A program made the translations under genes and the position numbers. From Saccostrea cucullata (lineage: Eukaryota): a stretch of 64,000 bases of DNA. This document shows positions 10,701-39,900 of the stretch, piece by piece. The notes below the pieces were generated by a model. It did no database searches. It saw only the letters and a list, made by a program, of their open reading frames with translations, and was not told where the DNA came from. Location of the stretch: NCBI RefSeq assembly GCF_032062105.1, contig NW_026933043.1:434001-498000 (forward strand). Reading direction: 5' to 3'. Position 1 is the stretch's first letter. Each line of letters starts with the position of its first letter.

Positions 10701-13700
10701 AAGTGTTGAATTGTAATAAATTGTAAATTTACTCAATAAAATTATATACACCAAGTGCAAACACAATGTATGCCTTTCAATCATAAAAAAGATAAGGAAG
10801 TTATAAGATTAGAACATAAAGTAGACCATTATATTGAGTTTAAGTTGATTGGAACCTACAATTTATTGTACGTAATAATTTAAGGGCATCATACAAACTA
10901 ACTACACCTGATTTATTGAAGGAAATATTTCCCAGCGAAGTTTTTAGTCCTCTCTGTTTATATTTTAATACAATGGATGAATTGTTGTCTGTTCTGTTTT
11001 AGATTTACACAGGACGTTTCCTGAGAATATATACTTCTCTACCAAGGATGGTCTACGTAACTCCCTCAGTAACGTCCTGATAGCTGTATCACATCATAAC
11101 CCAGACAAAGGGTATTGTCAGGTAACCAATCTATTCACTAGTTTAAAATGACCAATCATGTCACTGTCTTAATCAAAATGACCAATCATGTCACTGTCTG
11201 AATCAAACTGACCAATCATGTCAGTGGTTAAAACTTAGAAGTCAAGTTGCTGTCTTTTTAAAACCAGTGTTTTTTTTTCAGTACTTTGGGACTTGGGGCT
11301 GGGGCCCTCAGAATTGGGAATGTCAGCGTCAATATGGCTAAATTGGGAATCTCCAAGAAAACCCTGTTACTTAAAAAGCATTGTCAAAAAGCATTGTTTT
11401 TGTCTTTGTATGACTTTAAAGGGGCATGGACACAGTTTCCACTGAATTTTTTAAACCAATTTTAATGTTTACTATTCCTACCTAAGGCATCATCTAATGA
11501 TTTGTTGGTTAACAAACTAGATACAGAACTTAAAGTTCTTCATAATGTAAACAAGGCTCGTGCCTTGTTTTTGTTTACAAATAGAAAATATCATATTTAT
11601 AACAAAATGAAATTCAGCAAATCTACTGAAACTGTAGAATCGTATTTAAAAATAACTTTTTATTGAAATTATCTACTTCGAACGAACATATATTAGTACT
11701 TTAACCTATGAAAACAAAAACATTACACGGACTTTGTTTACACAACAAAAGGTTTATAGCTATAAATCGTTGTTGTATCTCGACATCTGATGTTAAAATT
11801 TTTGATGATTATTAGAAAGACCCTTTTTTAAGTTAAATGTTTCTAAAAATGGAAAAATAAAAGTTGAAATTATAACCGAAACTGTGTAATGCACCTTTAA
11901 CAGGCAATTGTTATAACAAATCAAGACTATTCTTGGTATGAGTTATCTAATTACTTGCATCAAGAACAATTGGGGTATGAATTATCTAATTGTGAAGAAA
12001 TCGAACATGGCTGAACAACAAAACCTGCTTGAACTTCATTGAAAAACATGCAATAAACAAACTGAATTTGATCAAATATTTTGTAAGTTTTTCTTTGGGA
12101 AAACTTCCACTACATTTTGGGAAAAAACAGGCATATTTACAATTGGGACTCAAGTCAATTGGCCCTAAAAAAATCACTGAAAACTGACCAATCATGTCAC
12201 TGTCTGATTCAAACTGACCAATCATGTCACTGTCTGATTTAAACTGACCAATCAAGTCACTGTCTTAATCAAACTGACCAATCAAGTTACTGTCTATCAA
12301 ACTGACCAATCAAGTCACTGTCTATCAAACTGACCAATCAAGTCACTGTCTTAATCAAACTGACCAATCAAGTCATTGTCTATCAAACTGACCAATCAAG
12401 TTACTGTCTGTCAAACTGACCAATCAAGTCACTGTCTTAATCAAAATGACCAATCAAGTCACTGTCCATCAGACTGACCAATCAATTCACTATCTGATTA
12501 AAACTGACCAATCCAGTCACTGTCAGATTCAAACAGACCAATCCAGTCACTGTCTGATTCAAACAGACCAATCCAGTCACTGTCTGATTCAAACTGACCA
12601 ATCAAGTCTCTGTAAGATTCAAACAGACCAATCAAGTCAAGTTCTGGTTCAAGCTGACCATTGGATGAACAAGTCACTGTCTGGTCTAGGCTTACTGAAA
12701 AGGCATTGTCTGGGACTTGATTCTATTGCCAAATTGTTTTTTTTTTTTTACAGGGACTTAATTTCATAGCTGGATTGTTGCTCCTCATTGTTAAGGATGA
12801 AGAGAGCGTGTTCTGGCTGATGGATTGCCTGATGAATAAAATATTACCAGGTCAGTATATGTATGATAATGAGGCGGAATTTCTTGATGTAGTATACAAT
12901 GTCTCAGAGATTAGAGGGTAACATTAGAGATCATAGTGGAAACTTCATTTATCAACTTGGTGCAAACAACAGGCTTCTTTAACAGCAACTATGAGTCAGA
13001 CTTTTATTTATGCATACTTCCTGAGTTTTAGGTGTACCTGCATGATTTTAAAATGTATTTACAGATTTTTATTCCCCTGGTATGGAAGCAGTCAAGGCAG
13101 AACAAGAGTTGTTAGGAGAAATCATTAAGTAAGCCAGTGCTCTCATTTAATAAAAGTTTGTAGTGAAGTCAGGTTAACATCTGTACATGTAAACTCTGTG
13201 CTAAATATATAGAGAAAATAGAGTGAATTATAAGTACATGTATGTACATGTAGTATGCTCAAAATGAAGAGAGAACAACTAGCTACTTGGTTGAGGAGTT
13301 TCTTAGGTATACATGTAGATTTTTTTGTTGGTTTGCAGATGGAAGGACCCTGCTTTATATCAACACATGGAGACAGTGGGAGTCCACTGGTGTCTTGTGG
13401 GAACAAAGTGGTTCATGTGTCTATTTGCTGATGTGCTGCCCACAGAGGTACTTATTGTAGGTTCGGTAATGAATGAATAACTTCAGTTTGTGAAAGAAAA
13501 GCATGTAAAAGTTGGTCCTTCATATGTGATCTGAGACATTATAGATCTGTAAATAATTTATGAAGTATTAAGAATATTCATCCATTTGATGATTTTATCA
13601 GAAGAGTATAAATGTAAAATGAAAATGAGTACAACTACAAGTAAAGAAGGAAAGTATCTGAATCTTATAATTTGATCAAAATTATTGTAGATATAGATCT

Positions 13701-16700
13701 CTTGTTAAGGCAAAGCCATTATTAGTCATATTGATCAAGACGCATCCTCAGGTAGTGTAGATTTGTGCAAGTCATGACCCCTGAGGTCAGGGTGGGGGTT
13801 TCATCAGTACCTTTCTACTTTAGATTAGCAAATTTGGCTTTCTTCAAACTTCATTTATTATCTTCTCTTTAATAGCTGTATTTGTGAGTAATTGTCTTTT
13901 TTAGACTGTTCTACGTATTTGGGACTGTATGTTTTATGAGGGCAGTAAAGTTCTACTACGGGTGTCAGCCATGTTAATCCTTCAGAATAAAGAACGCCTA
14001 ATGGCCTGTGATAACTTCACGTCAATGGTGAATGAGCTACAGTCCATCATCAAAAATCCACAGAGTCTGAACTGTCACAAGTTAATGAAGGTAAGACAAC
14101 TAAGAGATGGTGTGTTAATATTTTGGTGTTACTAGTACCCAATCTAATTAAAATTAGATGTTAGTATCCGCTCGCATACTGTAAATCACATTTTATTCGC
14201 GAGGACTTTATTTTCACGTAATTACACGAGACAGTGTGCTCGCGAAATTTAAATTCTCGCGTATAATAGTATTCCTTAAGATTATATAGAGCAATAACCA
14301 TAATTCGTGAAGATTTTGTCTCGCTAATCAAGAGTCAATGACTATCTCGCGAAAATAAGGTGTCGCGAAAATTAAGTGATCTACAGTACTTGCTACACTA
14401 ACATCTAACAACATCCCAAAGAGGGTCACGTCAGAGGTCAAATTCGGAACAACTCTAGACTTATTCCCATCACTTCGTCAACAAATATCCGATGATTTTG
14501 CCAGCGACAGTTTGATTGGTTGATAGATTTTGACCCCTGACGTGACCCTCTATGGGATGTTGTTCAATGTTGGTGTAGCGAGTATGCGAGGGGATCCAAC
14601 ATATAATTTTAATTAGATTGACTAGTACCATACATGTTAACTCTACCGAATTAGGCGGGAGTCTACCGCTTTTCTACAAAAGTTGCATCTAAAGTATTTT
14701 TGGTTCGCTTGGGTATCCATTTTTGAAGCCACTCTCATAAAATCTTGTTAGATATCACGTGATTTGACTCAGAAGCATACAAATGCTTTTTTTGTACCGA
14801 TGTGTACATAGATTTCAAGCACGAATTTGACAACAAAAACAGCACAAGATTACCAGTGATTAAACTCGTTATGATAAATTTAGTCAACATCACTGCCATG
14901 AAAAAGGAGATACAGCTTTTAATAATTAGATGAAAACGTTTGGTATCGTCTATAAAAGCACAGGAGCTCCCAATTTTATCAATAAAGTCAATAGAAATCA
15001 CTCGATTGACCAAGCCATGTGGTACATCTCTACTTTCGTTTTCGATCATCGTGGGAAATCTGATTTATATAGCGAAAGATAGGAACTTGTTTTAGATATA
15101 GTTTAAACCATGTCATCATTATACCCCCGCTCCGAAGGAGAGGGGGGTATACTGTTTTACCCTTGTGTGTCTGTCTAGCTGTCTGTCCGTCTGTCTGTCC
15201 GTAACAAATTTTCGTCGCAGTTTTCACAGCAACTACTCATCGTAGATGCTTGAAATTTTAACACAATCTTCTTTGAGGTATGCCATACGGTGGGATACAT
15301 TTTTGGTCAAATCCGATCCGATATCAACTTCCTGTTTGTCTGTGCATCTGTCCGTTTCATGCATAACAAATTTTCGTCGCAGTTTTCTCAGCAACTACTC
15401 ATCACAGATGCTTGAAATTTTAACACAATCTTCTCTGAGGCATGCAATACAATGGGATACATTTTTGATCACATCCAATGTTAACTTCCTGTTTGTCTTT
15501 GTGTCTGTCCGTTTCATACATAACAAATTTTTGTCACAGTTTTCTCAGCAACTACTCATTGCAGATGCTTGAAATTATAACACAATCTTCTCTGAGGTAT
15601 GCCATAAGGTGGGATTAATTTTGATATGAATCTGATGTCAATTTCATATTTTTCTGTGCATCTGTCCATAATTGAACTTGTGTATATTAACATGATAGTG
15701 TTTATTCACACTAGAGCGGGGGTATACCTAGTGAGCATTAGCTCACAGATTTTTTGTTTTGTTTAACAACTGAATGAACATTCAGAATTATTGCTTCTAG
15801 GCTATACTGGCAAAGATCACTTTTCAAAAGGCTGAGTTAAACAGCCAATTCTAGCAAAAAGATGAGCATGTACAATTTATGTCAAACTTAAGGTGTTTCT
15901 GTCTTCTTCTTTGCAGTTGATATTTAAGATTAATTATTGTAGGTTTCATTTAAGGCTACATACATGTATATATTACATGAAATATGTCGGTAATCCAAGC
16001 GTAAAACAACGCACGCACAATGCTACCGCTTTTGAGGTCTGAATCTCCCTAATTTTCATCGCAATAGGTTAACATGTATGCTAGTACCTTTTAAAGTGAA
16101 GATAGCAAACAGTGATCAATCAGTTAAGAACTTAGAAATGCAAAAGCATGAACAGGGCAAAATTAAAAAACAAAGCACAGACTTCTGACAACTCCCAGGT
16201 GGGATCAGGTACCAAGGATAAGTAAGCATCTTTTGTAGATTTGTCACAAACACCATGAGTCCTCTGTTACTTAATAGGTAAATGGAGTAATCAGCAGTCC
16301 AATTGGTGAGATAGAAATGATCATAGATGATTTGTATAATTACACTACTTCATTTCATTCACTGATGTTTCATTTAATTGATACTGTACTTGTACATGTG
16401 TACACTGTATGAATGAAGACCTGATTTCTGAACAGTCAAACTTTGTTATCTCAAACTTAAACTTGATTTTGGGGTTGGGGGGGGGGGGTCACAAGAGGTA
16501 TTACACGGGGGAATCTTGTGGAGAACAGCATGATAAAATTTACTCAGGTGACCGTTATAGGACTCTTGTTCTTTTTTTCTCCAATGTAAAATGGAATTCA
16601 CAAATTCAGTTTTATTTACTGATGAGAATAACTTCTGTTGCAGCACTGTTTTAAGAGACTGGGTTCGTTTCCTCATTCTCGGATTGAGAAGATGCGGCTG

Positions 16701-16727
16701 GAGTGTTTGGCTAGAGTCGGGGACTGA
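4754..16727 (+). CDS. GRTP1: Growth hormone-regulated TBC protein 1 (TBC1D6), Rab-GAP
   Basis: Exons with GT-AG junctions in frame: 4754-4791, 5115-5269, 7980-8026, 8258-8369, 11003-11121, 12754-12850, 13065-13128, 13339-13447, 13905-14090, 16644-16727. The protein has DGYGF, RKGIPNEHRKYVW, DLHRTFP (R finger), GYCQGLNFIAG (Q finger), FW, KWFMCLF and RIWDCMFYEGSKVLLRV, typical of GRTP1. Confidence 0.9.
5298..5512. mobile_element. MITE with TACTGTA...TACAGTA ends (Tc1/mariner-type, TA target)
   Basis: Inverted termini tactgtatacagg / cctgtatacagta. Confidence 0.7.
5580..5868 (-). mobile_element. tRNA-derived SINE-like repeat
   Basis: Minus strand reads gtagagcacttgaccagagattcagggggcccaggcttgaatcccggtctgg, with tRNA-like A/B box remnants; degenerate, so not a functional tRNA. 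Confidence 0.5.
5869..6317. mobile_element. hAT-like MITE with 5-bp TSD
   Basis: TIR cagggtttgaaattaac / gttaatttggaaccctg; flanking direct repeat tgact; internal actagtccg subterminal motifs. Confidence 0.75.
8771..10678. mobile_element. hAT-type non-autonomous element with 8-bp TSD, carrying a nested element
   Basis: TIR tagggctggg / cccagcccta; TSD ttataaat at 8763-8770 and 10679-10686. Confidence 0.85.
9118..10627. mobile_element. Non-autonomous DNA transposon with GGCC ends and 3-bp TSD (Zator/Harbinger-like), nested in the hAT element
   Basis: TIR ggccggaattaaaaatatctttgtttcccctaac / gttaggggaaacaaaggtatattttattttggcc; TSD caa. Confidence 0.75.
11265..12179. mobile_element. hAT-like MITE (CAGTG ends, 5-bp TSD)
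   Basis: cagtgttttttt ... aaaaaaatcactg; TSD aaaac; internal ttggga motifs. Confidence 0.7.
11420..11896. mobile_element. TTAA-target MITE (Kolobok-like), nested
   Basis: ttaa|aggggcatggacacagtttc ... gaaactgtgtaatgcacct|ttaa. Confidence 0.75.
14140..14620. mobile_element. Foldback (Mutator-like) MITE with 9-bp TSD
   Basis: Long inverted arms caatctaattaaaatta... / ...taattttaattagattg; TSD actagtacc on both sides. Confidence 0.75.
14177..14388. mobile_element. TACTGTA...TACAGTA MITE nested in the foldback element
   Basis: tactgtaaatcac ... gtgatctacagta, with internal tcgcga repeats. Confidence 0.75.
14629..16080. mobile_element. P-element-like non-autonomous transposon (CAT..ATG ends, 7-bp TSD)
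   Basis: TIR catacatgttaac / gttaacatgtatg; TSD ctagtac at 14622-14628 and 16081-16087. Confidence 0.75.
15119..15758 (+). mobile_element. Helentron-associated element (HINE/DINE-like) with internal ~165-bp tandem repeats
   Basis: subTIRs tatacccccgctc / gagcgggggtata, 5' hairpin, (gtct/gtcc)n microsatellite, three core repeats, 3' palindrome gtgagcattagctcac followed by a T-rich end. Confidence 0.8.
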
Positions 16728-22076: not shown

Positions 22077-25000
22077 CTAGTCCTTCTTGAGTCGGGTCGT
22101 GGTCATTCTGTAGATGATACTGTCCCGCCCTGGGTCAATGTTCCACATCCCGTACGACACCGCAAAGAGGATGACAAACATGGCAATCATAAACCACAGA
22201 ATAATGTTAAATATGGCGGGGTAATTCTCATCGTAGTCCTTGGAGAGATTGATGTCCACATCAGAGTCCTAAAATCAGAGAGAGAATTATAGACAATCTT
22301 TAAATTGAAATCAGAAGCAAGGCCAGCAAAGCAGACCTGATAAACAATTGACTGATTTATAATTTTCAAACCCTCTAAATACTAAAACGTTTCCTTTGTC
22401 AATGAATATAGAATACATTGTATATTTTCAAATATAAAACTTTTTTTTCTTTGCATCTCACCGATCAAAATGAAATAAAAGCCATGTACATGAAAATTGT
22501 TTATCAATCATCTTGTGTGACTTTAATAAACAACCGAGTTACATTTGTACTTCCCTTGTACATTACAAACTTCAATACCATATAATGTCAGCAGTGTGAC
22601 TTATCTTATACTCCCTCCCTTGTTCCAAACATATATTGTCATCACTGAATAATCAAATCAATACAGCAGTATGACCTTCACTCCTCAATGTGGCCCCCAT
22701 CCAACAAGTGCTCTGAATGATCAGAGCAACACAGTAGTTTGACCTTCACCCCCTGTGAGGTCCCCCCTCCCCTGTTATTTACCTCCACGGCCATCAGACT
22801 CCTTGTTTTCCTGACATATTTTTCCTCGGGATTAATTGACAGAACTTCCACCACCACATTGTCTTTGTATAACTTCTTGAAATCTTCTGTCATCTGAAAT
22901 CATATTTATTCCATTAAGAAATCTGTAGTGGTATTTTTTTTTTACTTTCTTTGATTCAGACAGTCTGAACCTAACATGAGAGATTTTTATCACAATCTAT
23001 TTTACCACCTATAATGGTTGTCAGTTGGTGAATTCAAAGCGGGGGAAAAATCAATAGACAGAGTTATCTCCCTTAAACTGTGTCGAAGCAAATTTTAAAA
23101 TAGAGTAAAATTTTTGCGTGTCTCTGATGTTTTAGAGGTCCGTGTTTGCTCTGCTCCTAATTTGTATTGTTTAATGGACTACAATATTGAATACTGTTCG
23201 TTGTCTCCATATCCTTCATCTGAACAGTGTAATTGGTAAAAAAATGACAAGGTATAAAAAACAACCAAAGAAATGTTCAACTAAACTTCTGTTTTTGATT
23301 AACTATTCATCTGCTATTAGTTTAATTCTAGTTACACTTGAGTATGTACAGTACACCCTGTATGATTATGAAAAGCCTGTTAAGTCTGTGTGTTCTATGT
23401 CTTACCTTTGTTATGAAGTCTGATATCAATCTGTGAGCGTCCTCTGTCTGAGGGAAGATTTCCCTCCATGTTTGTTAACGATGTCATGTAGACCGGTGAT
23501 GGTGAAGGAAAAGAGGTCGGGGGTCTTACTCTTCAGCATTTCTGGACGGTCACTCACCTTTAAATATAATCAAAGATTTAAGTTTTATTTATCTAGACAT
23601 CTGTACTGTATGTTTACAGTACCTTTACAAAAAATATTAATATGAATGGTTAGCCAACTTTTCATTTACCCTTAATATTTCATTTTAAACTTCATGTGCT
23701 ATAACTTAAACATTTCTATATTTCATTAAAAAAATAAACTGCAAACTTACATATTCATTTTTTACAACTTTTTAAACAAATAGAATAAGCATATAAAAGA
23801 CTGGTCAACTGTCAAGATTATGTGAAAAATATTTTTTATTCCGGCATTAATCAATTAAACTTAATTACACTATTCCTTTACCGTGTTAATGACATCCTGT
23901 ATGAGTTGCAACTCCCCCATCAGTCTGAGATGGCTGGGTTTGCTGGCATTTAGTGACCCCACGGAGTGTCTCTGTAACACGGAGTCTGAGTCCAGCAGTC
24001 GGTCAGACATCTTCCTGAGCGTGTCGGGAAGTTTACGGAAAACATCAAAGTCAGAGTGGACATCAAAAAACTAAAATAAACATAGACCTCAATCAAAAAC
24101 TTCAAAGTCGCCCTGCACATCAAAAAAATAAAATAAACATAGACCTCAATCAAAAACGTCAAAGTCAGAGTGGACATCAAAAACTAAAATAAACATAGAC
24201 CTCAATCAAAAACATCAAAGTCAGAGTGCACATCAAAAAACTAAAAGTAAACATGGAGGTCAATTATTTAAGCAGTAAACCATAAAAGATGCTTGAAGTT
24301 TGTATGCACATGTATGTTTCATAGTAGAGAATCAAAAGTGAAACTGCAGGTCAATTATATTTATTTTCAATATGTATATGAAACCACTGCAAAAATAATT
24401 GCATATCATTTCAATTGAATCTTATTCTGTTGAATTTTTCTTGTAATGTATTCGTTCTAAATGTATGTTTTTTAATACGAATACAAATCATAGTAATATT
24501 ACTATATTCAATGGAATTGAATTGATTTGGACTGTATGCTCTTATGGCAACTTCGACCCATACTCAAAATTATTACATTATCATAAATACAGAGTAAACA
24601 GCTTTATGTATTTACATTGTTATCCATGCCAGCATCAAGTAACAGTGGACTCTGATCAAAGAAAGCTCCCTGGAGTGTGTTCATCAGAGAGGCAATGTCC
24701 ACCATTGGAATATCCTACAAATAAAGGAAGAACTTTTATTGGTCAGAAAATCAATCTACATGATGTTTCAAATATCTTTGTAAAATTTAGTAAGGTTAAA
24801 CATAGAAGTTGTGCATTATATATGAATTAGCATTATATGACTGTTAGATAATTTCTATTTTTCACCAAAGACTTACTGTGTTTACAGGAAATCGGGCCAT
24901 GTTTTTAACAGTTAGCGGCTTCTTTTTTAAGTCATTGTGTCCAAGAATTGATACAAGTATATTGGCCTTCGGTCTTTTGAAGAAGGAATTCTGGGTAAGT

Positions 25001-26151
25001 CCATTCCAGTTGACATCCTAATATAGAAAACATAAATCATGTAAATAGTGGGAAATCAGAATGATAAAGTCATTGTACATACAAGCCATCTGCAATTAAT
25101 CAATAACTTACATTCTAACTTCACCGATTAGCAACAATATATTTTGGTGAATGAAAAAAAAAAATATTTTCTCAAAGATTTGAATATATTTTAATAATGT
25201 ACCATAATCTTAAAGAATTTCCATCTATGTACTTTGTTCTTTTGTAAATCTCATGTCTGTTTCAATTTACAGTGTTTTTCATGACCCATCAGAAATGTGG
25301 TCTCTTTACCCTCAAAATACTTAATATTTTCTAAAATTTATTTTGAGATCATGTTCAAAAACTTGTTTACAATAACTTGTTGTGACAGGAAAAAGATTTC
25401 TCCCTACAAATTTCTTTCCATTAAAGAGTAAAATCATTGCTTTTATAATCATGTATAATATGAGTGAAAAGCATTGACAATATCAGTAATGCACTTTTGT
25501 CTTTCATCAGTGCCGTTTTCACCAGGTGCCGTTTTGACTTGTACCCCTTTTATAATATGAGTGAAAAGCACTGACAATATCAACATGATCAATAAAGCGA
25601 GGCTCCTTCTGCATCCTGGAATGTTACATAACACCGAGTGTGTGTGTTACCAGGAACACTGCTGGTGGACAGCAAACTCCTTAAATAAATCAAGAAGAAA
25701 ATTAACCTATGCATGTGTAAACACTAACTCTTGTCCATAACACACTCCTTAAATAAACCAGGAAAATATAACCTGCTATTGTAAACAAATACACATGGGA
25801 AAACAAATCAATGGAAAACGGACCATTCAGGAAAACAGCAATGCAACATCAGAAATTTATTTTCTAACTTGACTAAAATCAAAAGTCTTTACAACCTAGC
25901 AATGCTAAAACACATGTTTCAGTAAGAACCGGGTCAGGTGATGCCATCGTGACAACCAAAATATGTGATCTACATCTCAAAATTTTCATCAAAAAAAGTA
26001 TTCCATCGACAATTTTTTTTTCTTGGAAAAAATACCAAGAATATTTATTTACAACGCCCTTAAATAATTATCGTAAAACCATGCAAATCTTACCTATAAA
26101 AATCAATATGTAAAATTGCAATACTAATAGTCCTCTTTCCCTGTCCGCCAT
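22077..26151 (-). CDS. ATP6AP2: V-ATPase accessory protein 2 / (pro)renin receptor; apparent frameshifts in exons 2 and 6 as assembled
   Basis: Exons 26151-26094 (signal peptide), 25679-~25550 (garbled), 25017-24877 (W.GL...F.RPKAN), 24714-24616, 24070-23882, 23557-23406 (PDLFSF), 22893-22783 (furin site RKTR), 22268-22077 (YPAIFNIILW TM ... WNIDPGRDSIIYRMTTTRLKKD). Confidence 0.9.
24040..24262 (-). repeat. ~57-bp tandem repeat spanning the 3' splice site and first ~30 nt of ATP6AP2 exon 5
   Basis: Four copies of aaaacatcaaagtcagagtggacatcaaaaaactaaaataaacatagacctcaatc. Confidence 0.9.
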
Positions 26152-26168
26152 TTTGACTGTGAATGTGT

Positions 26169-26178
26169 GTCATGTGAC
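26169..26178. promoter_or_regulatory. M-box/CLEAR-like E-box (GTCATGTGAC) just upstream of the ATP6AP2 start
   Basis: One mismatch from CLEAR GTCACGTGAC and contains the M-box TCATGTG; 18 bp from the ATG of a V-ATPase gene. Confidence 0.55.
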
Positions 26179-27556: not shown

Positions 27557-27698
27557 GGAAATTCCAATACACCAAAAATAAGTTTTGAAAACTGATTGGT
27601 TAATTCTTTACTGCTACTGAAATTTTTAGAACTTTAAATATAGATCGCGCTCTTGTTATAACTCCTGCACGTTTTAAAAACATATACCGGTATATAAA
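27557..27698 (+). promoter_or_regulatory. Putative promoter of the TNF-like gene: kB-like site and TATA box
   Basis: GGAAATTCCA at 27557-27566 (reverse complement TGGAATTTCC); TATATAAA at 27691-27698, about 40 bp before the ATG. Confidence 0.4.
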
Positions 27699-27733
27699 AT
27701 TCGACTTGTGGGACCTCTACAGTACAACCTAAC

Positions 27734-29306
27734 ATGACTCTCCTAGTTGACGAGGAGTTAGCGTTATCAAATGACGAAAGATTAAAAGAAACTCTTCCAG
27801 ATTTAGAACAACTAAAACCACGACGAAGAACTTCAAGAAGATGCCGAAAGTCCATCCTTGTGTCTGGCACGTCAGCGGCAGTTTCTATGGTTACGTTTCT
27901 TGCTTTTGTGGGAGTTTTTGTCTACGCCCGAAATGTTTTTAAAACCCCTCTGGAAGAATATTGGAAATTGGTAAGTGTTCTTTATTTTCCTGTTTGAAAT
28001 GGAAAATATGATGAGTTAAATTAATTAAGTTATAATTAATTTTTAAAACACTTAGATTCAATTTTATATAATTTTTAAAAACATGTAACATTTCGTTAAA
28101 AACCAAAAAGAACCCTAAATTTTTTTCATTTGCATTTAACCATGATGTTTTTTTAATAGACGGACATGCAACAAGATTTTGCAAAATTCATTGTATTTTC
28201 CGATCACATAAAATTTTATGCTGAATTATAAATATTTATACATGATATATTTTTTTATAGACAGACATCACCCCGCCAGCTTATTCTCGGAACGAATCGT
28301 TCCACGGAAATTTTCCTGTAGCGTACATGGTTCTGGACACTGATTCATTAACAGGTCAGTAAATCTATATATAGAATTATTTTAACATATATATCATATA
28401 ACTGATTTTTCAACATAATTATATATATATAATTATGTATATAATATACATCGATTAATTGATTATGCAAATGAAGTTTGAAAAACAAACACAATGCAGA
28501 CCTTTTAAAAATTGATGATGTAAGTTTGTGAATAATTTTTCTGAGCTAGAACTATGTAGAATGTTTTATCAGAGAAGATAAATTATAATTTGTGTTATAC
28601 ATATCTTAGCTGTGTAAGAAGTTTCTCAAAATATACACATATCAATATCTGGGTGGTGGCGGGGATTTCCTGTATTCATTTTTAAACAGCTAATTTAAAA
28701 GCCACCCGCATATCTTTTATAAACTTTTTATAGCGTTTTTGAATTAATTTAATCGGATTGTGATTTAAATGGCACTTCATTTGTACCCCAGTCACTTCAA
28801 AGAGTTTTATTGTAGATATTTAAAATTTTTCATTAAAGTAGGTATTTAAAGGCATTGGGTATTTTCCATTCATTTTTAAAAACGAATTAATTAATTGGGG
28901 AATTACTTCTCTTATAACCGTAGATGGCCATGAGATTCTAAGATGGAAAAATTTCAAAAACCAGACTTACACCAGAGGCGGGTTTGTGTACTCCGAGGGA
29001 TTCTTTATCATCCCCAAGAGTGGCTTTTATGACCTTCACTCGACACTGAGCATCGAGACGCAACTCAAGACAGGCATGGGCGATGTCACGATTTACAGCT
29101 GCATTGTGACGTCATCAGGAATTACCCTAGGCTGTAACCGAATGAGGCAGAAGAAGGGATGGGCGGGGCATAGCGAAGTCTTAGTGCTGTCCAGGTGGTT
29201 AGAGAAAGGGGAGAGAATCGGCGTGACGCTGGCACCAAAGTCCACGAAATCCCTTATCCACGGCAACCCGACAGAAAATGCTTTTGTTATTCGACTAATT
29301 AGATAG
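27734..29306 (+). CDS. TNF superfamily ligand (type II membrane protein with C-terminal TNF homology domain)
   Basis: Exons 27734-27970 (basic stretch then TM ILVSGTSAAVSMVTFLAFVGVFVYA), 28261-28354 (PVAYMV, A strand), 28924-29306 (LRW...GFVYSEGFFIIPKSGFYDLHS...LEKGERIGV...NAFVIRLI). Confidence 0.8.
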
Positions 29307-30219
29307 CATATCTAATTGTAGTGCAAAAGCCTTTGTTAACAATCTTCTATATAAGTCATTAGCAAACTTTTTTCAAAAATATAGTTTTTCATACATTATT
29401 TATGCTTTTTGTTACATGTATAGGGATAACAATACACATTATCACATTATATGCAATTGTATAAGCCCATCTTTGATCCTATCTGACTTTTGTTCAAACT
29501 TCATGCATGTATATCTTAAGTGGCTTATAGAAGTATATGATATGATCGATGGAATAAATTTTGAATTGCATGAATCACAGTCAAGCACTTTTAATTTGTA
29601 TTTATTATTCATATAAATTAAAATGATATTCTTCTAAAAAAAGAAAAACGAGAAAAACATATAAATTGACTTGAGGGAAAATCAAGACAGATGAATCTTA
29701 TTAAGGAAACAATGTCTACAAATTTAAAAAGAAAAAAATGGATTCAGCTGAAATCAGAATTTGTTTAAAATTAAAAGCCGTGTGATCAGAGATCTCTCAT
29801 TAACCGCTGGGGATGCAGAATTAAAAAAAAAATTGAAATGGGAGATCAGTATTAAATTACAATTTTATGAGTTAAGGGGTGTTGAACCGTAGTTTTATAT
29901 GTGAGGTTTAGGAGTCTTATTTTAGCAAGTGCCCGTGCTTTCAACATATAGTCCGTCTGTGGTTCCTAAAGGGGTGTACTGTAATAATCTTAAACTGTTA
30001 AATGTATTGACGAGCATGACCAAAGAATGAACAGACTTAAAGTTGAAAACGAGAGAACTCTGACATTTAAATAAATCCAAAAAGAAAACAGAAAAATTTG
30101 TAACGAACTTAAAAGAAAATAATTAAATTGCCAGTTGAAGTTATATTCTCTATGAAGTAAATAAGTATAAAGAATACGGTAATTTATCAGGACACAAGCT
30201 TTATGTGTAGGCACCAACA

Positions 30220-33200
30220 ATGGGGCTGTGGTCATGTAGATTTTGTCTGCTACAGCTGATTTTTATACTGACTTCTTTTGAAGGTAAGTTTTAATATAAA
30301 TTGAGCGTGAATTGCACAAAATTTTTGATGTACAAACTTTTGTGAGATACACATCTTTCGAAACTACAACAAACTCGTAGTTTTCCTGCATATAATTCCA
30401 CGGTATCGATACATTTCATATTTGGCTTTTAAATTCACTACCTTTTACCTTCTGAACCCTTGAATTCACTTAAAAATTGATACTATTTTGAATATACATC
30501 TATTTTACTATCATACGTACCTTCTTGTATGGATCTAAGATTGTGTGTGTGTGTGGGGGGGGGGGGTGTCGGTGGAAGGGTCAATTATTAGAAAAATATT
30601 GACAAGGAAAATTCTTGACTAAAACGATTACAACTCTTATTACTAGTATTTTAATAGGGGGTATGATAATCATATTTTGAGGCGCAATGGGTTGGGGTGG
30701 AATTTTGAAGTTCGTATCCCAAATGTCCTTTCTCTGGCTCCGGGGCCATGAAACTTAGATAAACTAACTTTAAATCTCAATTCTATTTTAACCGAGGAAT
30801 GATAGTGAAAAGGAGAACGAGATCAAAAAAGATCTGGTCTATGTTTTCTGGCCCCAGGAACTGGTCTGGCTCTTTGCGAGGGCTGTTGGTCCTTAAATTT
30901 GCCTTCTCTCTATATGTACGAATCTCTCACATTTTAATTCCCTTTCCTCTCCTTTGTAATAGTGATACAATCACCTGTAAGAAAAAACTCCTCCAATAGC
31001 TCCCTGTTTTTAAAAAAGTCCCTCACATTTTAATTTCCCTCCTTTGTTATAGGGGCCCTGACAATCACCAGAGACTTTCTACTCCTCCAATAGTTCCCTG
31101 TTTTACTACAGTCCCTCACATTTTAATTGTGTGTGTGTGTAGGGGCCCTGACAATCACCTGTAAGGTTCTACTCCTCCAATAGAAAAATATTGACACATT
31201 TTAATTTCCCTCCTTTGTTATAGGGGCCCTGACAATCACCTGTACAATTCTATTATTTTAACAGATGTGTGTTTTACTCTTGAGGAGGTCCCTCACATTT
31301 TAATTTCCCTCCTTTGTTATAGGGGCCCTGACCATCACGTGTAAGACTTTCTACTCCTCCAATAGTTCTCTTTTACTACGCGTCCCTCACATTTTAATTT
31401 CCCTCCTTTGTTATAGGGGCCCTGACCCACAGGCACCTGAAGTATGGATAATACCCCCCCTTTTTTTTTATATTGAAAAAAAAATGTAACAGTGTATAAT
31501 ACCTCGAAAATATAAAATTTCCCCGTCAAACACAACTATATGTAGTTATATACAAGCAGATTGTACTTTTTCTCACGTTTAAAGAATGGCCCTAGCTATT
31601 CGGTATTTATTATACCGAATAGGGCCATTCTTTAAACGTGAGAAAAAGTTCAATTTGCTTGCATATAACGACATATAGATGTGTTCGACGGGGAAATTTT
31701 ATATTTTTGAGGTATTATAACTTACATTTTTTTCAATATAAAAATTGATTTATCATAATTTTGTGCATGTTCCTGACCATCACCTGTAAGACCTTCTACT
31801 CCTCCAACAGTTCCCTGTTTTACTACGAGTCCCTAACATTTTAATTCTCCTCCTTTGTTATAGGGACTCTGACCATCACGTGTAAGACGTTTTACTCCTC
31901 CAATAGTTCCCTGTTTTACTATGAGTCCCTCCTTTGTTATAGGGGCCCTGACAATCACGTGTAAGACGATCTACTCCTCCAATAGTTCTCTATTTTACTA
32001 TGAGTCCCTCACATTTAATTCCCCTCCTTTGTTATAGGGGCCCTGACAATCACGTGTAAGACGATCTACTCCTCCAATAGTTCTCTATTTTACTATGAGT
32101 CCCTCACATTTAATTCCCCTCCTTTGTTATAGGGGCCCTGACAATCACCTGTACGACCTTCTACTCCTCCAATAGTTCCTGTTTTACTATGAGTCCCTCA
32201 CATTTTAATTCCCTTCCATTGTTATAGGGACTCTGACCATCACCTGTAAGACGTTCTACTCCTCCAATAGTTCTCTTTTACTACGAGTCCCTCACATTTT
32301 AATTTCCCTCCTTTGTTATAGGGGCCCTGACAATCACGTGTAAGACTTTCTACTCCTCCAATAGTTCCCTGTTTTACTACGAGTCCCTCAAATTTTAATT
32401 TCCCTCCTTTGTTATAGGGGCCCTGACAATCACCTGTAAGACGTTCTACTCCTCCAATAGCTCCCTGTTTTACTACGAGTCCCTCACATTTTAATTTCCC
32501 TCCTTTGTTATAGGGGCCCTGACAATCACCTGTAAGACGTTCTACTCCTCCAATAGCTCCCTGTTTTACTACGAGTCCCTCACATTTTAATTTCCCTCCT
32601 TTGTTATAGGGGCCCTGACAATCACCTGTAAGACGTTCTACTCCTCCAATAGCTCCCTGTTTTATAAATCCCTCACATTTTAATTTCCCTCCTTTGTTAT
32701 ATGGGCCCTGACAATCACCTGTAAGACGTTCTACTCCTCCAATAGTTCTCTTTTACTACGAGTCCCTCACATTTTAATTTCCCTCCTTTGTTATAGGGGC
32801 CCTGACAATCACATGTAAGACTTTCTACTCCTCCAATAGCTCCCTGTTTTACTACGAGTCCCTCACATTTTAATTTCCCTCCTTTGTTATAGGGGCCCTG
32901 ACAATCACGTGTAAGACTTTCTACTCCTCCAATAGTTCCCTGTTTTACTACGAGTATTGCTCGGTGGGCTGCTGTGGATCAGAACGAAGTCGGAAATGCT
33001 GCTCCGCGGATAAGTAAGTCTGAGTAATGTATTGAGACTTATTGCTTTTAAAAGTGCTTTAACTATTGTGTTTTATGAGCTCACCAAAGCCAACATCCTC
33101 ACAATGTCAAGGTTTTGTAATTTCGGAACTCAACATAACGGTAACCGCTTGTGGAGTTCCGAAGTCACAAAACCTTGACAATGTGAGGATGCAAAGCCAA

Positions 33201-35059
33201 AGGCTGTTAGTGCTTTTCTGGTAAAAAATTTGTTCGCCTTCAGAAGTCCGTCGTAGTTGTAAACTTTTCATACTTTCATTCCTTTCTCCCAGAATCATTT
33301 GATCAAACTTGGCACAGAGTATTAATAATTGCTAAAGGGCATTCAAATTTGGTCAAATTAATGGCAACTGTGTTGGGGGGGGGGTTAATTATCAGTTCAG
33401 TTCAGTTATGGAGTTCCCTCCTATGTATAAGGAGCACCCTAGAAGGTGTTTTTAAAAGACGTAAAAATTAAAAATAATAAAAGAAATAAAGTGATGAAAA
33501 GACAGTTAGTAAAATCTATTCTATGTAGTGCTGTAAAAATAAAGTTAGAGGTGATAGACAAACTAAAAATAAAAAACGAATTTACAGACTATACATCATG
33601 GAATAGTGAAAATTTGGTGGAGTCATTGCAAGTTAGTATTCTTCTTAAAAAAAACACTGGAAAAATGAAACTTTAGTGAAGGCTTGCTAATAAATAGTGT
33701 ATAAATCATGACATTCCGGTAGTTTTACAAATGAAACTACATGTACATGTATATAGGATTCATCTTTTAAACAGAATATACTTCTCAAGAGCTTAGTCAT
33801 ATATCAAAATTGGAGCAAACTCAAAAAAAGACTACGTATTGTAGAGTCAAGTTTATTCAGATCTTGTCTCCTGGAGGTAGCACAGGGCTACAATAGAAGA
33901 TCAAACATTTGCAAAGAAACGTACAAAAGATAATTAGTCAAAGAATTGAATACAAAAACATCCTCATCAAGGATAGATTTAATTTCACTTTCAATTGTTC
34001 AAACTAACCCCTCCCTCTAAGGTTGTAGGTTCGGATTTTTTATAGCACAGGCACTTGTTTCGGAATAATTTTTATAGATTCAATTTATCTCCTAGCCAGA
34101 GTGCTCATGCAGGTGAGCAATATGGCAAAAAGGCCTCTTGTTGAAGAATGAATTATAATATTTTTTTGCTTTAATTATACTATAAAGCAAGGAAGATCTA
34201 GATATATACTAGTCTTGTCAATAACACCTGTGCATTCTCTTTGACAGTACGGGCGCCATTGTCGGGGGTGTGGTTGGGGCTCTGGTTTTCTTCCTCATTG
34301 TCTCCGTGGTCATGTTCATATGTTGGCAAAGCAACAAGAAATCCAAACAGCTTGTCGACGTGGAACCCGAAATCGGTGTGTATACACAAATCAATATATA
34401 GACAGTGTACAAAATGTACCTTACAGGAGAAAAAAAAAGTATCTTTATGGGTTAATTACATTGAACTTGCAACCCAGCTTCATGATTTCCTTTTGAAAAG
34501 CTGAAATAGATGTTTATTCGATTTAAAAATGGGGATATTGTGTTGTGAAACTAAAGCATGTATCTTTATTGTTGCACACATTTGATACTAAAAAGATGCC
34601 ATATTAGAGGGATAAATTTTAATTAAAAGCGAAATTGTTAGAAAATCTGTAACATCAACTTGTTTGTCACTTACTTTGATGGATTTTAGATTTACATTTG
34701 ACTGTACTCAAAACATAATATTGCTCTTCTTATCAAATCATTTGGGAGACAGGAGCAACATTGATAACTAGTATTTGATGATTGGACTTTGATTTTTTTT
34801 CTTAACAGATGAGTTTGGATACGAATTAGAGGTTATGGGTGATATGCATCCATATCAAACCGGAAGTGAACCTTTTAACTCTCCAGTCTCTCCGAGTCAT
34901 CTCCAGGGAGACTTCCGGCACGGTGACGTTGACGCAGAGACATTTCCCAAACACCACGGATGTCCCCCGCCGGAATACGAGGAGAACCTCCCCCCGATGT
35001 CTCCCCCGCCCACTTACAAGGAGAGAGAAGAAACCGTAATGTCGGAAGAGCGTTACTGA
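30220..35059 (+). CDS. Shisa/CYYR1/WBP1-like single-pass membrane protein with Cys-rich ectodomain and PY motifs
   Basis: Exons 30220-30283 (signal peptide MGLWSCRFCLLQLIFILTSFE), 32893-33013 (C..C...CC......CC), 34248-34375 (TM AIVGGVVGALVFFLIVSVVMFIC), 34809-35059 (PPEY, PPTY). All junctions are GT-AG and in phase. Confidence 0.8.
30925..32955 (+). repeat. 96-bp tandem array (~18 copies), each unit = polypyrimidine tract + AG + first 62 nt of exon 2
   Basis: Unit ccctcacattttaatttccctcctttgttatag|gggccctgacaatcacctgtaagacgttctactcctccaatagttccctgttttactacgagt (e.g. 32481-32576); only the last copy continues into unique exon sequence. Confidence 0.95.
31469..31740. mobile_element. Palindromic foldback MITE inserted in the 96-bp array
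   Basis: ~130-bp near-perfect inverted arms centred near 31608 (…gaatggccctagctattcggtat / ataccgaatagggccattc…). Confidence 0.8.
33075..34142 (+). mobile_element. Degenerate Helentron-associated (pearl/CvA-like) element
   Basis: 5' gagctcacc, decayed core repeats (caaacttggcacag, gtagagtcaagtttattcagatc), 3' caggtgagcaatatggc...ggcctcttgtt. Confidence 0.55.
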
Positions 35060-36944
35060 TTCTGCGTGGGACTGGAGTTTATGGAGGGATTCATTTGTGG
35101 GGGCAATTTTTAAAAAACTTGATGAAATCTTGGCACTGAGATCAATTTTCAGAGTGCTTTAATTATATTGATTTAGCAGGAGATCCTTTTTTGGAAACAC
35201 AATTTGTTTTATTTTATGTAATTGAAAAAATTTCTGATAAATTATAAAAATAATATATATATTTATAAGTTATACGAGTATCTATTATATTCATTATGAT
35301 AAATTATTTATATACTCTGCATTTCCTCTGTATTAAAGTGTCATGTTGTAAATTTTGAATTTAATGACCGGGTGGCGGTAAATACAAAATTTACAACATG
35401 AAAACTAAATGACAAAAGGATGAATAGTACTACATGTATATATTTAAGGGATCACTGTCTAGTTAATAGAATATGCAAGGGCATCAACGATAGTTGGAAA
35501 CGAGGGATAATTTACAGAACAGGCGGCAATTGCTGATTCCTTATAATTTATTTCCCTTTCGTTAAAAATTATGGAATAAAATATTTTAAATTTAGATTTT
35601 AAAAATGTAGACTACACATGTATTATAGATTTAAATAACACGAGGCCTGACCTATTTGTAGGCGAAATTTACATTTTGGTTAAATTAAGACCGCGGAACA
35701 TAAGATTGGAAATATGCAGCTTACGTCATTTCTACCTGTTACAATCAAAACATTCAATGACAAAGAATGAAATGGAAGGGTATAATTCGACGCGGACGCA
35801 GGGAAAACATTGGATTGAAATTCTAGTTTGAAATTCATTTTCAATCCACCTCAGCTACGCTAGAAGGCACATTACATAGTATTACCGATTGAACCAGAGA
35901 ACAAATAATTTCAATTTCGGTATAATTTGAAAATAATATATACAATATTGTAAATGGGAATTTTCTGCCCAGCGTTTTAAAGGAATATATGAAGGGACTA
36001 ATATATGATTTCTGTTTGATATAATGGTAAAATTTATGCATGTGCGTACGTGTTATGTGTGCGTTAAGTGTGTGGTTAGGTTCGAACTCCAGTACCAAAA
36101 AATTTCTTCCAAACACCACCACTTTCCCCATTTTTAACCTTTACTAAGACGTATCTGTGGAAAGTGTGGGTGGGGGGGGGGCTAAACTTACGAAGATATG
36201 TTCAATGTCTATACTAATTATATATTTAGAAAAAAAGTGGGGGGCTAAGCCCCCTCCCCCCCCCCCCCCCCCCCCCCCCGGTTCCGACGCCTATGAGAAT
36301 TTCAATCCAATGTTTTCCCCTCGTCCGCGTCGAATTGTACGTCCCGCCCATTTCATAGTCTATCATTTAATGTTTTCGTTGTAACAGATAGAAATTACGA
36401 AAGCTTCATACTTCCAATCTTTCCAGTAAATGTTTTGCGGTCTTATCAACAAATCAAGTATACTATAAGTTTCAAATAGTTAACACAGACTAAGAAAACA
36501 AGTAGAAATTGAAATAGGGTGAGGCCTATCTGGTGGAAAATTATTTTGTATTTTGGGAAAATCACTCTAATCCCCCCCCCCCCCTCCCCTTGTGAGTTAC
36601 TATTTTCAGCAAAATTATCAGTGATTAAGTAAATATGGGACTTCTTAACATTTTGTGTAAACAATTTCTCAAATATCGTTTTTGACATCTTGGAACAATG
36701 TTCTAAAATCATGAAAAGTTTTCTTTTGCCTAGATCGAATGTTTACCTAAATTATTTAGAGGTAAATCTACATAAGAAGTGTTATACCTTTCTAAGCATA
36801 AGAGGAAGCAACTTCTACATATAAATTGATAGAACTAACCGAAAATATTTTAACAAACATCACGAAAAATATCTGAAAGATTTAGCAAACACCTTAAACT
36901 GGTGGCCTTCTGTCAACATAGAGGACCAGTTCACAGAAATAAAC

Positions 36945-39900
36945 ATGGCGGGTGACAACACATCCACCGGTTTGGAAAATTATTTGCACTTCATTTTCCC
37001 TCAGCCATGCTATGATGAGTATTTTGTGAAATTTAATTTCTTTCACGGTACGACTTTTATTTTATTCTATGCATATTTGAATGACACTATGCTTTATTTA
37101 GTTACAAAAGACAAAAAACCGACAGTGATCAAAGTCCTCTGCACTCGAATTTCCTCGGATCCATTTTTGCAAGTAGACAAACTTCCGACTGATAGATATA
37201 CATTGGCCCAAGAACCTATTTTTAAAGGTCCCTGATTGACCAATGTTGACAGAGTTTAAAATTTTGTCAAATATTGAAAAGAGATATGCTAGTTAGTTAG
37301 TTAGTAACTTAGTTATATGAAATTTTCTCATGTTTCATTTTGAGATCTAAGGTTTCAAGAAGTGGAACATAATTATGGACATACAGCTAGGATTTACTTT
37401 TCCTAAAACACATTACATGTAGGACGATGTCAGTGAATATTTTGACAACATTTATAGAAATTAATGCACTTGCATTTTTACACTCATTATTTTTCCTCAG
37501 TATTAATCATCATGATGTTTAAATAGTTTTCCTTCTTTTTTCAGCCCAATGTTTCAACATAGTGCTTAGCAAAGCACTAGGATACAGTATTATCTTAGGA
37601 GCTGTTATGGGTATGTAACTCAAATGCAGTTTAAAGCAGGTTGGGGCCCATTGCCTAAAGGAAATGCATGTTCAATTTTGTTGATTAACTGACATATCAT
37701 ATTTTTTCATTGCTTTCTTAAAAAGCAATCATTATGTTCTGTTATTCTCCTTTATGAGATTGATCCACAAGAATTTCATGATTTCTGAGGAATGAATCTC
37801 ATTAACATTGAAATTACAGAAAAAAAAATGTTAATGTAAAATTATTAATATCTAGTAAATGTACTGTAATACAGCAAAACTCGTTTAGTACGAACACGCA
37901 TATTGTGAATTCATGGATATAGCGAAGTTATCTTGGTTCCCAAACTATAATATGTTCTACGATGCGACCGTTGGGGCGAGCGCAGTTATTTACTATCAAA
38001 AACATTTACACAGCTTTGACTTCCACTGCCTATCCTCAGTTCATTAAAAAAGAAGAAAAAAAAAACCAAAATCACTTCCCAGGCATCGGGATCAAGATTC
38101 CGAACTTCTCAGAAGTTTCTGACAAAATCAGAAATACCCAAGCCGTTTCAGTGACGAAAGTATGACGTCAAATAAAAAGTCCTGTTGACTCTGAACGCAA
38201 ATGATAGTTTTGTGGCATGGAGATAGCCACCATGTTGCTATGCACCGCAAAGGATTATTGAGAGTTTGGAATTTTTTCACGCGGTGAGATAAAAATTTCT
38301 TGGAACAATGTGCAGATTTCAACCCGAATTTCCTCCGTTCGTACACGTTAGTCTATTGAGCTTGCTACGCGAGCGGCGCTTCGCGCTGCCTTGCTGCGCT
38401 CGCTGTAAATTGAACTAATTTCTTATACGGATATAATGAATTACGGATATAGCGAAGTAATTTCATAGGTCCCAGCGACTTCGTTATAACCGAGTTTTAC
38501 TGTATTGATTAATGAAAATTGATTTCTTTCAGTGAAGCTTCCCCAGATTGTGAAGATTCTGAAGGCAGGTAGTGGGGAAGGAATCAGTCTGGCCGCTGTC
38601 CTGTGTGAACTCTTTGCCATCTCAGCCACCACCACATACGCATTCGCCATGAGCTTCCCATTCAGGTGTGAATAGACTATGAGTCTGTCTCAAACTCGCT
38701 AGTCATGAGCTACCAATTTAAGTGTGTATGAACCGTGAGTCTTCTCAAAATTGCTAGTATTGAGCTTCTATCTAGATCTCACTAGTATAGATTGAGCTTC
38801 CCATTCAAGTGTGAAAAGACAGAGAATCTGTCTCAAACATGCAAGTCGTGAATTTCCATTCAGGTGTGAATAAACTATGAATCTGTCTCAAACTCACTAG
38901 CCTTGGGCTTCCGAATTTAGGTTAGAATTAACTTTAAGTCTGTCTCAACCTTTTTAGCCATTTTAGTTTGAATAGATTGCAAGTCTATCTTAAACTCACA
39001 AACCATTAGATATGAGCTAATGTAGGTGGGAAGGGGTTGTGAGCCTGTCTCAAGCACAACAAATAAGTTCAGGGCTTTCACATTAGCAATTGGCTAGGTA
39101 TGAAATATAGAGTGTGAGTGTTTCATAAAATTACTGTAAATTACTAATTATACTGGAGGATTTTTTATTTCTTCATTTTGCAAAAAGTATTGGCTTTTAA
39201 TTATTGTTAAATTATAAATACATTATTTTTGAAATGTTCTCTGACTATTTTACAAGTTCAGTTCCAGAAATTATGTATTTTTGTAAAAGAGAAAACTAAA
39301 GTAACATTGATGAGAAAACTCCTTTTGTCTCCTCTAGTTATTGATATATAATTTTGTATTTATGTTAAAATGATGAGGTTAGCTTTGTGGTCTTTGCTTG
39401 GAGAAGGTCTTTGCATGTTCAATGTCTCTAACTATCTCTATTTCGCATGTCTGTTCCTGATATATATAATTATCAAAAATGATCTCTATTTTTCAGTGCC
39501 TATGGTGAGGGTCTATTCCTGACAATACAGACCAGTACAATTGCCTTCCTAATCCTATTCCTGGGTAGTAATGCTGTTGCGGCGTTGCTATTTGCAGCCT
39601 CCTATATAGGAATCATGGCTTATCTACTGTCAGGACTGTGTCCGCTGCCAATTTTAGGGGCATTACAGAGCATTAATATACCAATAGTGATACTTAGTAA
39701 GGTAAGTGATGGAACAAATATATATACTGGAGTGGAAACCTTAATTATTTTTGCTCCATATTGACTCTAAAAGGATGCATGCAAGTTTAAAAAAAAAAAT
39801 TCATTAAATTGACCATTATAATAAGGATTGGCAAAAATTTGGACAAACCATTTTGCTAACAATTTGACTGAAAAGGTAATTTTAAATTGACAACGTTATG

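What the first reader, a model, noticed from the sequence alone, without database searches (positions are those of the whole stretch)
11122..38960. Tandem repeats in this window preferentially originate at exon-intron junctions (4 genes)
Seen: apart from TE-borne satellites and microsatellites, the tandem repeats I found all overlap or abut a splice site. They are the Shisa-like exon 2 acceptor (96 bp), ATP6AP2 exon 5 acceptor (57 bp), ATP6AP2 exon 2 acceptor (duplicated actccttaaataaa at ~25676 and ~25744), MPDU1 exon 3 donor (56 bp) and the GRTP1 exon 5 donor-adjacent 30-mer. In each case the array extends into the intron, leaving the coding exon intact. Inference: this is either a mutational process tied to junctions (R-loops or breaks at exon edges, composition boundaries) or selection tolerating only intron-ward expansions. 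It would be a ready source of new alternative or poison splice sites and intron sliding.
Basis: partly seen in the sequence, partly recalled or inferred. Interest (0 to 1): 0.7.

Follow-up and report, generated by a model that had tools for sequence, protein, structure and literature searches.

The report
Oyster splice-junction "mirage" minisatellites
Three short repeats in this oyster window each copy the edge of an exon together with its splice signal into the neighbouring intron; this repeat type is known from lancelets and humans and is likely spliced out harmlessly, but elsewhere in this genome it is about 2.5-3 times commoner than chance, mostly as long arrays at splice donors.

Summary
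Partly confirmed. Three arrays have units of exon edge + splice site + intron: Shisa-like acceptor (96 bp, ~19 copies), ATP6AP2 exon 5 acceptor (57 bp, 4 copies), MPDU1 donor (56 bp, ~7 worn copies). The ATP6AP2 exon 2 acceptor is duplicated, but that exon is scrambled in this assembly. The GRTP1 30-mer only abuts its donor, and its main block is mid-intron. 'All' is wrong: 4 of 11 non-TE arrays in the window span a junction. These are 'mirage' minisatellites, known from amphioxus and human F7; this scan noted them before, in this genome and others. Outside the window (1.69 Mb, 1,021 junctions, my own exon calls), 23 of 163 non-TE arrays span a junction versus 6.5-7.2 expected (2.4-fold under the strictest null). 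The excess lies in arrays of 3+ copies (11 of 22 genic arrays versus 1.7-2.2 expected, all at donors), not in simple duplications (1.7-fold). Decoy use gives stops or frameshifts, and decoy GT/AG are neither purged nor conserved. Best reading: tolerated repeats that are amplified more often when anchored on an exon. Splicing was not tested.

The parts
30927..31430 (+). Shisa-like 96-bp mirage, distal block (about 6 worn copies); holds two 15-16 nt patches identical to intron sequence about 590 nt upstream, possibly assembly consensus mixing
31465..31744 (.). Palindromic, MITE-like insertion (100-nt arms, 93% complementary) that splits the 96-bp array
   Evidence: the MITE label is inferred
31772..32955 (+). 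Shisa-like 96-bp mirage, proximal block; unit = 33 intron + 63 exon nt; the last copy holds the real acceptor (AG at 32891-32892)
   Evidence: all 17 G000 matches at this locus (a lower bound)
32893..33013 (+). Shisa-like coding exon 2, intact and in frame with exon 1 (30220-30283)
   Evidence: Pfam Shisa_N E=6.7e-4, below the cut-off; same exon called ab initio
24034..24263 (-). ATP6AP2 exon 5 acceptor mirage, 57 bp x 4 (25 intron + 32 exon nt); the nearest decoy has lost its AG
23882..24070 (-). ATP6AP2 exon 5, intact, 95% identical to S. echinata renin receptor-like protein
25590..25774 (-). ATP6AP2 exon 2 region: two acceptors 68 nt apart, exon pieces out of order with a stop; likely garbled assembly or a broken allele
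38648..39129 (+). MPDU1 exon 3 donor mirage, 56 bp (18 exon + 38 intron nt), about 7 copies at 75-92% identity
   Evidence: single G000 match
38533..38665 (+). MPDU1-like (PQ-loop) exon 3, intact; whole 5-exon frame open
11123..11255 (+). TBC-domain gene (GRTP1-like) 30-mer, small block abutting the donor at 11121|11122; no clear exon content
12175..12683 (+).
   Evidence: one weak match elsewhere in G000 (72%)
22645..22752 (-). Worn 68-bp array starting within about 30 nt of the ATP6AP2 exon 7 donor (22783); abuts, does not span

Best explanation
These are 'mirage' minisatellites: local tandem duplications whose unit holds an exon edge, its splice site and some intron, likely tolerated because the spliceosome would use the copy next to the unique exon, and likely amplified more often than purely intronic repeats because the exon-anchored copy cannot be lost. 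Shown: unit anatomy, locus-specific units, a 2.4-3.5-fold excess at junctions outside the window, concentrated in arrays of 3+ near-identical copies and at donors, and stops or frameshifts on decoy use. Inferred: (1) birth by ordinary slippage or unequal exchange, close to random with respect to junctions; (2) tolerance through use of the exon-proximal site, with NMD of decoy products; 5'-to-3' donor scanning (shown for human F7) would protect donor arrays better than acceptor arrays; (3) amplification by misaligned recombination seeded in the conserved exon between haplotypes whose introns differ strongly. Step 3 is the weakest (about 0.35-0.4 on its own).
For: Unit anatomy. Enrichment: 23 of 163 arrays vs 7.2 (full-length null), vs 6.5 (seed null); 23 of 81 genic arrays vs 9.6 GC-weighted; no simulated draw of 40,000 reached 23. 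Homology-anchored kinase junctions alone: 7 of 76 arrays vs 2.4, P=0.01; 7 of 362 junctions vs 8 of 1,615 intron controls. Off the window's contig: 18 vs 5.8. By copy number in genic sequence: 3+ copies 11 of 22 vs 1.7-2.2; under 3 copies 12 of 59 vs 7.0-7.2. Near-identical (95% or more) genic arrays 9 of 16 vs 1.3, so slow decay of old copies is not the cause. Donor:acceptor 18:5 against 518:503 junctions, P=0.011; all 11 arrays of 3+ copies are at donors. Neutrality: derived alleles at decoy GT/AG 8 vs 10.0 expected over 14 arrays, P=0.32; 7 of 18 sampled periods are multiples of 3; 4 of 4 decoys give a stop or frameshift. Three haplotype-like pairs: exons 96, 98, 100% identical; non-exon 85, 95, 99% with 22, 9, 0% unaligned. 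Precedent: PMC3087553, PMC3902484, PMC1557585 (passages).
Against: Splice-site use was not measured here. The window's two longest acceptor arrays (19 and 4 copies) go against the donor-only pattern of the sample, and 9 of 15 scored Shisa decoys score as well as the real acceptor. Two-copy duplications are still 1.7-2.3-fold enriched (P=0.04-0.05 genic), so some bias at birth is not excluded. Arrays that abut without spanning are also enriched (14 vs 6.0), which the exon-anchor idea does not predict directly. Interspersed repeats are rarer near junctions (2.6% at 10-50 nt vs 20% at 400-800 nt), so there is no general shelter from deletion there. The three pairs may be paralogues. 309 of 541 exons are ab initio and Pfam confirmed few of them (8 of 60 random ones hit host domains, 2 of 60 hit transposon domains). 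The period range 20-149 was chosen after seeing data; with 20-400 the ratio is 1.95. Two of the 23 calls look doubtful by eye.
Confidence: 0.55

Rival explanations
1. A splicing- or transcription-coupled mutational process (R-loops, Pol II pausing or breaks at 5' splice sites) creates or expands duplications at junctions.
For: Excess survives GC weighting and a genic null; donor bias 18:5; abutting arrays also enriched, 14 vs 6.0; strongest among near-identical arrays.
Against: Two-copy duplications are only weakly enriched (1.7-fold genic; near-identical two-copy 2 vs 1.35). Breakpoints are not focused: the intron share of donor units runs from 5 to 55 nt. Selection against acceptor decoys explains the donor bias equally well.
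Confidence: 0.22
2. The decoy sites are functional (regulated poison splicing, U1 recruitment or intron-retention control) and selection keeps the arrays.
For: Most decoys keep the dinucleotide (113 of 119 donor and 23 of 25 acceptor copies; copies within an array are not independent); use would give stops.
Against: Column-wise test shows no extra conservation of GT/AG (8 vs 10.0, P=0.32); MPDU1 copies have decayed to 75-92%; a MITE-like element sits inside the Shisa array; published mirages are reported not to disturb splicing (PMC3087553, PMC3902484, passages).
Confidence: 0.08
3. Assembly artefact: noisy long-read consensus or haplotype mixing made the duplications.
For: ATP6AP2 exon 2 is scrambled and exon 6 has a 1-nt frameshift; the distal Shisa block carries patches copied from about 590 nt upstream.
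Against: Copies differ by substitutions at 75-98% identity with shared variants; 23 independent cases on many contigs; an artefact has no evident reason to favour donors. It likely explains the exon 2 case only.
Confidence: 0.07
4. No real excess: chance, base composition and biased exon calling in a repeat-rich genome.
For: Post hoc period range; ratio 1.95 with periods to 400; small counts; my own exon finder; 0 of 21 arrays of period 100-149 span a junction.
Against: Excess in homology-anchored kinase junctions alone, in both sample halves, off the window's contig and after GC weighting; chance alignment rate at most 1 of 2,832; 8 of 9 ab initio donor exons with a downstream neighbour continue in phase; two match CDK4/6 and AMPK.
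Confidence: 0.08

Closest known systems
Amphioxus 'mirage' minisatellites (Adh3, globins BflGb6/BflGb9, troponin C, PGBD5); Ebner et al. 2010, PMC3087553, and PMC3902484 (passages read)
   Same: Tandem units spanning an exon-intron boundary at either end, within the reported 10-160 bp range; many but not all copies keep AG/GT; the authentic copy is next to the exon body.
   Different: Different phylum (oyster). The passages read give single loci and no genome-wide null; here an excess and a donor bias are measured. Normal splicing and length polymorphism were shown there and are untested here.
Human donor-spanning VNTRs: F7 intron 7 (37 bp), 6-16, CBS intron 13, LMNB2, PDGF; Borensztajn-type scanning study PMC1557585 (passages read; the author name comes from earlier scan notes)
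   Same: First unit spans the junction, donors are reiterated in the intron, the most upstream donor is used; matches the MPDU1 array and the 18 sampled donor cases.
   Different: The window's largest arrays are acceptor-side; no minigene or RNA test here.
Internal tandem repeats at exon-intron boundaries of human segmental-duplication genes; De Grassi and Ciccarelli 2009, PMC2812944 (sections 6 and 12 read)
   Same: Minisatellites at exon-intron boundaries that can activate cryptic sites.
   Different: Those create new introns or change proteins in young paralogues; here conserved single-copy genes keep their older introns and their protein.
Intron gain by tandem duplication of proto-splice sites (Rogers model; recalled, and cited in PMC3087553)
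   Same: Duplicated splice signals as raw material.
   Different: Here the unit carries authentic intron sequence and the intron holds much non-repeat sequence (ATP6AP2 intron 4: about 190 of 545 nt is array); no new intron is seen.

Membership tests
Mirage minisatellite | Tandem unit spans an exon-intron boundary | tested here: met
   Shisa 33+63, ATP6AP2 exon 5 25+32, MPDU1 18+38 nt; not met for the GRTP1 30-mer
Mirage minisatellite | Many but not all copies keep AG/GT | tested here: met
   14 of 15 Shisa, 2 of 3 ATP6AP2, 3 of 3 scored MPDU1 decoys
Mirage minisatellite | Unit built from the host gene, not a dispersed element | tested here: met
   Own-genome searches: 17 of 17 matches (96-mer) and 1 of 1 (56-mer) at the locus, lower bounds; the 57-mer was checked only against the 1.72-Mb sample
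Mirage minisatellite | Regular splicing from the exon-proximal site | not testable with these tools
   Needs RNA of this species; only the in-silico outcome of decoy use was computed
Mirage minisatellite | Length instability between haplotypes | tested here: inconclusive
   No second haplotype of the window found; patches offset by about 6 units in the Shisa block hint at it
TE-borne satellite | Array embedded in a dispersed repeat | tested here: not met
   Dispersed-repeat fraction 0 for the junction arrays versus 1.0 for the 157- and 166-bp arrays
Intron gain by tandem duplication (Rogers model) | Intron made wholly of duplicated exon sequence between proto-splice sites | tested here: not met
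   Units hold true intron sequence and the introns hold unique sequence
Regulated decoy or poison splice cassette | Decoy sites under purifying selection | tested here: not met
   8 vs 10.0 derived alleles at GT/AG, P=0.32, 14 arrays; low power

The most novel reading that the evidence does not exclude
Splice donors are true hotspots of minisatellite amplification in oysters: half of all multi-copy, non-TE minisatellites near exons are built from a 5' splice junction, driven by a junction-linked process (recombination that starts in conserved exons and slips at the edge of divergent introns, or U1/R-loop-coupled instability). This would make mirages a genome-wide mutational class of highly polymorphic marine invertebrates and a measurable supply of cryptic donors.
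Probability: 0.35. Interest if true: 0.65.

Novelty: new member of a known kind. Interest (0 to 1): 0.4.

Why it matters
The repeat type is known, so the window adds examples. The added value is a measured excess with a shape: about 2% of junctions carry such a repeat, the excess lies in multi-copy arrays, and it is donor-biased. That turns a single-locus oddity with an 'unclear' mechanism (PMC3087553) into a testable question about where minisatellites are amplified. It also offers natural arrays of identical splice sites for testing donor scanning versus acceptor choice in an invertebrate; the 19-copy Shisa acceptor array is the sharpest case. In practice such arrays can mislead gene annotation and assembly at exon edges.

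Tried and rejected
RNA: the one run search listed no RNA holder, so no reads were laid; this is no evidence either way. Second haplotype of the window: none found. Comparing junctions with all sequence showed no excess (6 of 416 = 1.4% vs 1.5%); rejected as a null because the background is dominated by TE-borne 100-200 bp satellites, and in non-dispersed sequence it is 0.57%. The full-length placement null could understate expectation for long arrays; it was redone with a seed-length null and the result held. Slower decay of anchored copies: rejected, the excess is largest in near-identical arrays. GC alone: rejected, it raises expectation by about 10-30%. General shelter from deletion near exons: not supported. 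Apparent over-retention of decoy GT (6 lost vs 18.9 expected): rejected as non-independence of copies after the column test. Frame-preserving periods: no excess. Pfam as exon validator: low yield (11 of 77 at E 1e-4; only coiled-coil noise at 0.05 for 15 exons); PDB found no match for one of three exons tried. Rows dropped before counts: the window; L189, L198, L222 (haplotype-like duplicates); one array-internal false exon in L014; 4 arrays lying in exons; arrays over 50% dispersed repeat. Literature: nine searches listed no bivalve report and no genome-wide enrichment test of such repeats, judged from listings only. Two relevant papers (PMC2791625, PMC1783408) were not held, and the original Adh3 paper was not seen; these may hold such a test. 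PMC10078293 (passages) did not bear on it. No supplements were read.
Full report
Setting. The window is G000:C15180:434001-498000 of a 1.17-Gb assembly in 23,869 contigs. ATP6AP2 exon 5 is 95% identical to a Saccostrea echinata renin-receptor-like protein, so this is an oyster. I built gene models by hand and checked exons against Pfam (RabGAP-TBC, PQ-loop, RENR_N/Renin_r, and a weak Shisa_N match; 8 of 10 exons hit).

Observation. Three arrays have units that span a junction. The Shisa-like acceptor unit is 96 bp (33 intron + 63 exon), with 19 matches in two blocks split by a palindromic insertion. The ATP6AP2 exon 5 acceptor unit is 57 bp (25 + 32), with 4 copies. The MPDU1 donor unit is 56 bp (18 exon + 38 intron), with about 7 worn copies. 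The 96- and 56-bp units were found only at their own locus (lower bounds). The ATP6AP2 exon 2 acceptor is duplicated at 68 nt, but the exon's pieces are out of order and interrupted by a stop and no other copy exists in the assembly. The same gene has a 1-nt frameshift in exon 6, so local assembly error is the likeliest reason (inference). The GRTP1 30-mer begins at intron +2 without clear exon content, and its main block is mid-intron. Of 11 non-TE arrays in the window, 4 span, 2 abut and 5 are free.

Test outside the window. I fetched 1.72 Mb: two contiguous blocks (410 and 400 kb), 15 small pieces, and 80 stretches centred on kinase-domain matches. After dropping three haplotype-like duplicates, 1.69 Mb remained. 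A kinase profile gave 232 homology-anchored exons; at 12 bits it had no hit in the other 940 kb. An ab initio finder added 309 exons (132 of 181 kinase exons recovered exactly, with the coding model cross-validated). Dispersed repeats were masked by self-comparison (28% of bases). Junction-centred, gapless test: 16 of 963 junctions have a copy on the intron side only, none on the exon side only, and 1 on both sides (a false exon, dropped afterwards). Gapped test: 20 of 944 junctions vs 32 of 4,367 intron control points (2.9-fold; controls not independent); kinase-only 7 of 362 vs 8 of 1,615. Array-centred test: 23 of 163 arrays (period 20-149) span one of 1,021 junctions, vs 7.2 expected, 6.5 with a seed-length null, 8.7 within 1 kb of junctions (81 arrays) and 9.6 with GC weighting. 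With periods to 400 the ratio is 1.95 (23 of 191 vs 11.8). Kinase-anchored junctions alone give 7 vs 2.4 (P=0.01). The ab initio exons are only partly validated: Pfam hit 1 of 17 array-side and 10 of 60 random exons (77 of 279 candidates given); PDB matched two of three tried (CDK4/6, AMPK); 8 of 9 with a downstream neighbour continue in phase.

Shape of the excess. It lies in expanded arrays: 11 of 22 genic arrays with 3+ copies span a junction vs 1.7-2.2 expected, while two-copy duplications give 12 of 59 vs 7.0-7.2. It is strongest in near-identical arrays (9 of 16 vs 1.3). Donors outnumber acceptors 18:5 (P=0.011), and all 11 expanded arrays are at donors. The window's two long acceptor arrays are exceptions. 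Abutting arrays are also in excess (14 vs 6.0). Still, 140 of 163 arrays do not span a junction.

Function. Use of the nearest decoys would give a stop (Shisa; ATP6AP2 third decoy) or a frameshift (ATP6AP2 second decoy; MPDU1). Decoy GT/AG columns vary like other columns (8 vs 10.0, P=0.32), so there is no sign that they are purged or conserved. Splice-site use in RNA was not measured.

Mechanism. Shown: anatomy, excess, donor bias, unproductive decoys. Inferred: near-random birth by slippage or unequal exchange; survival because the exon-proximal site is used (shown for human F7 donors, PMC1557585; reported for amphioxus mirages) with NMD as a backstop (established knowledge); and preferential amplification of exon-anchored units. 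For the last step I favour misaligned recombination seeded in conserved exons between haplotypes with divergent introns (exon 96-100% vs non-exon 85-99% identity in three pairs that may be paralogues). A splicing-coupled process at donors is the main rival. The intron-ward polarity needs no special mechanism.

Known relatives and novelty. The arrays meet the testable defining features of amphioxus 'mirages' (PMC3087553, passages) and of human F7-type VNTRs; De Grassi and Ciccarelli (PMC2812944, sections 6 and 12) describe related boundary repeats. I recalled the mirage term before one search confirmed it. Earlier notes of this scan report the same kind in other genomes (one about twofold over chance, one at chance) and twice in this genome; I did not check those. 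My nine paper searches listed no bivalve report or genome-wide enrichment test, but two relevant papers were not held. Verdict: new member of a known kind, with a real, moderate, donor-biased excess. Interest 0.4.

Noticed in passing
window 25590-25774 and 23406-23557 (minus strand): ATP6AP2 exon 2 is scrambled and exon 6 has a 1-nt frameshift relative to S. echinata, with no other copy in the assembly; likely assembly errors in an essential gene.
   Followed up: partly
window 31126-31140 and 31181-31196: Two patches inside the distal Shisa array are identical to intron sequence 586 and 592 nt upstream (about six units); consensus mixing of two alleles or template switching.
   Followed up: partly
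window 31465-31744: Nearly perfect palindromic element (100-nt arms, 25-nt spacer, 18-nt outer arms) inserted in the 96-bp array.
   Followed up: partly
   Followed up: partly
L179:6869-7919, L177:2103-3344, L171:6173-6803, L158:3537-4049, L152:5868-6222, L098:6311-7556, L025:4888-5555, L049:810-1180, L018:8105-8529: Long donor mirages (6-28 copies) in kinase and other genes (CDK4/6-like in L171, AMPK-like in L177); in L179, 16 of 17 decoy donors score at least as high as the real one. The L177 intron has a donor mirage at one end and a different array abutting the acceptor at the other.
   Followed up: partly
L182:4767-4961, 5159-5237, 7541-7622: One kinase gene carries three separate junction duplications (one acceptor, two donors), and L098 carries two; possible clustering by gene, as in the window.
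   Followed up: no
window 27771-29140: Exon-like pieces of a small gene (28261-28354 scores as an exon) whose joined frame did not stay open in my model; not identified.
   Followed up: no
window 43600-46000 (minus) and 140-1600, 46400-48050, 53500-55030 (minus): A broken LINE-like reverse-transcriptase stretch and three TRIM/B-box-like coding regions, recognised by eye from recall only.
   Followed up: no
window 7980-8026: Probable additional small exon of the TBC-domain gene, called ab initio at a low score.
   Followed up: no
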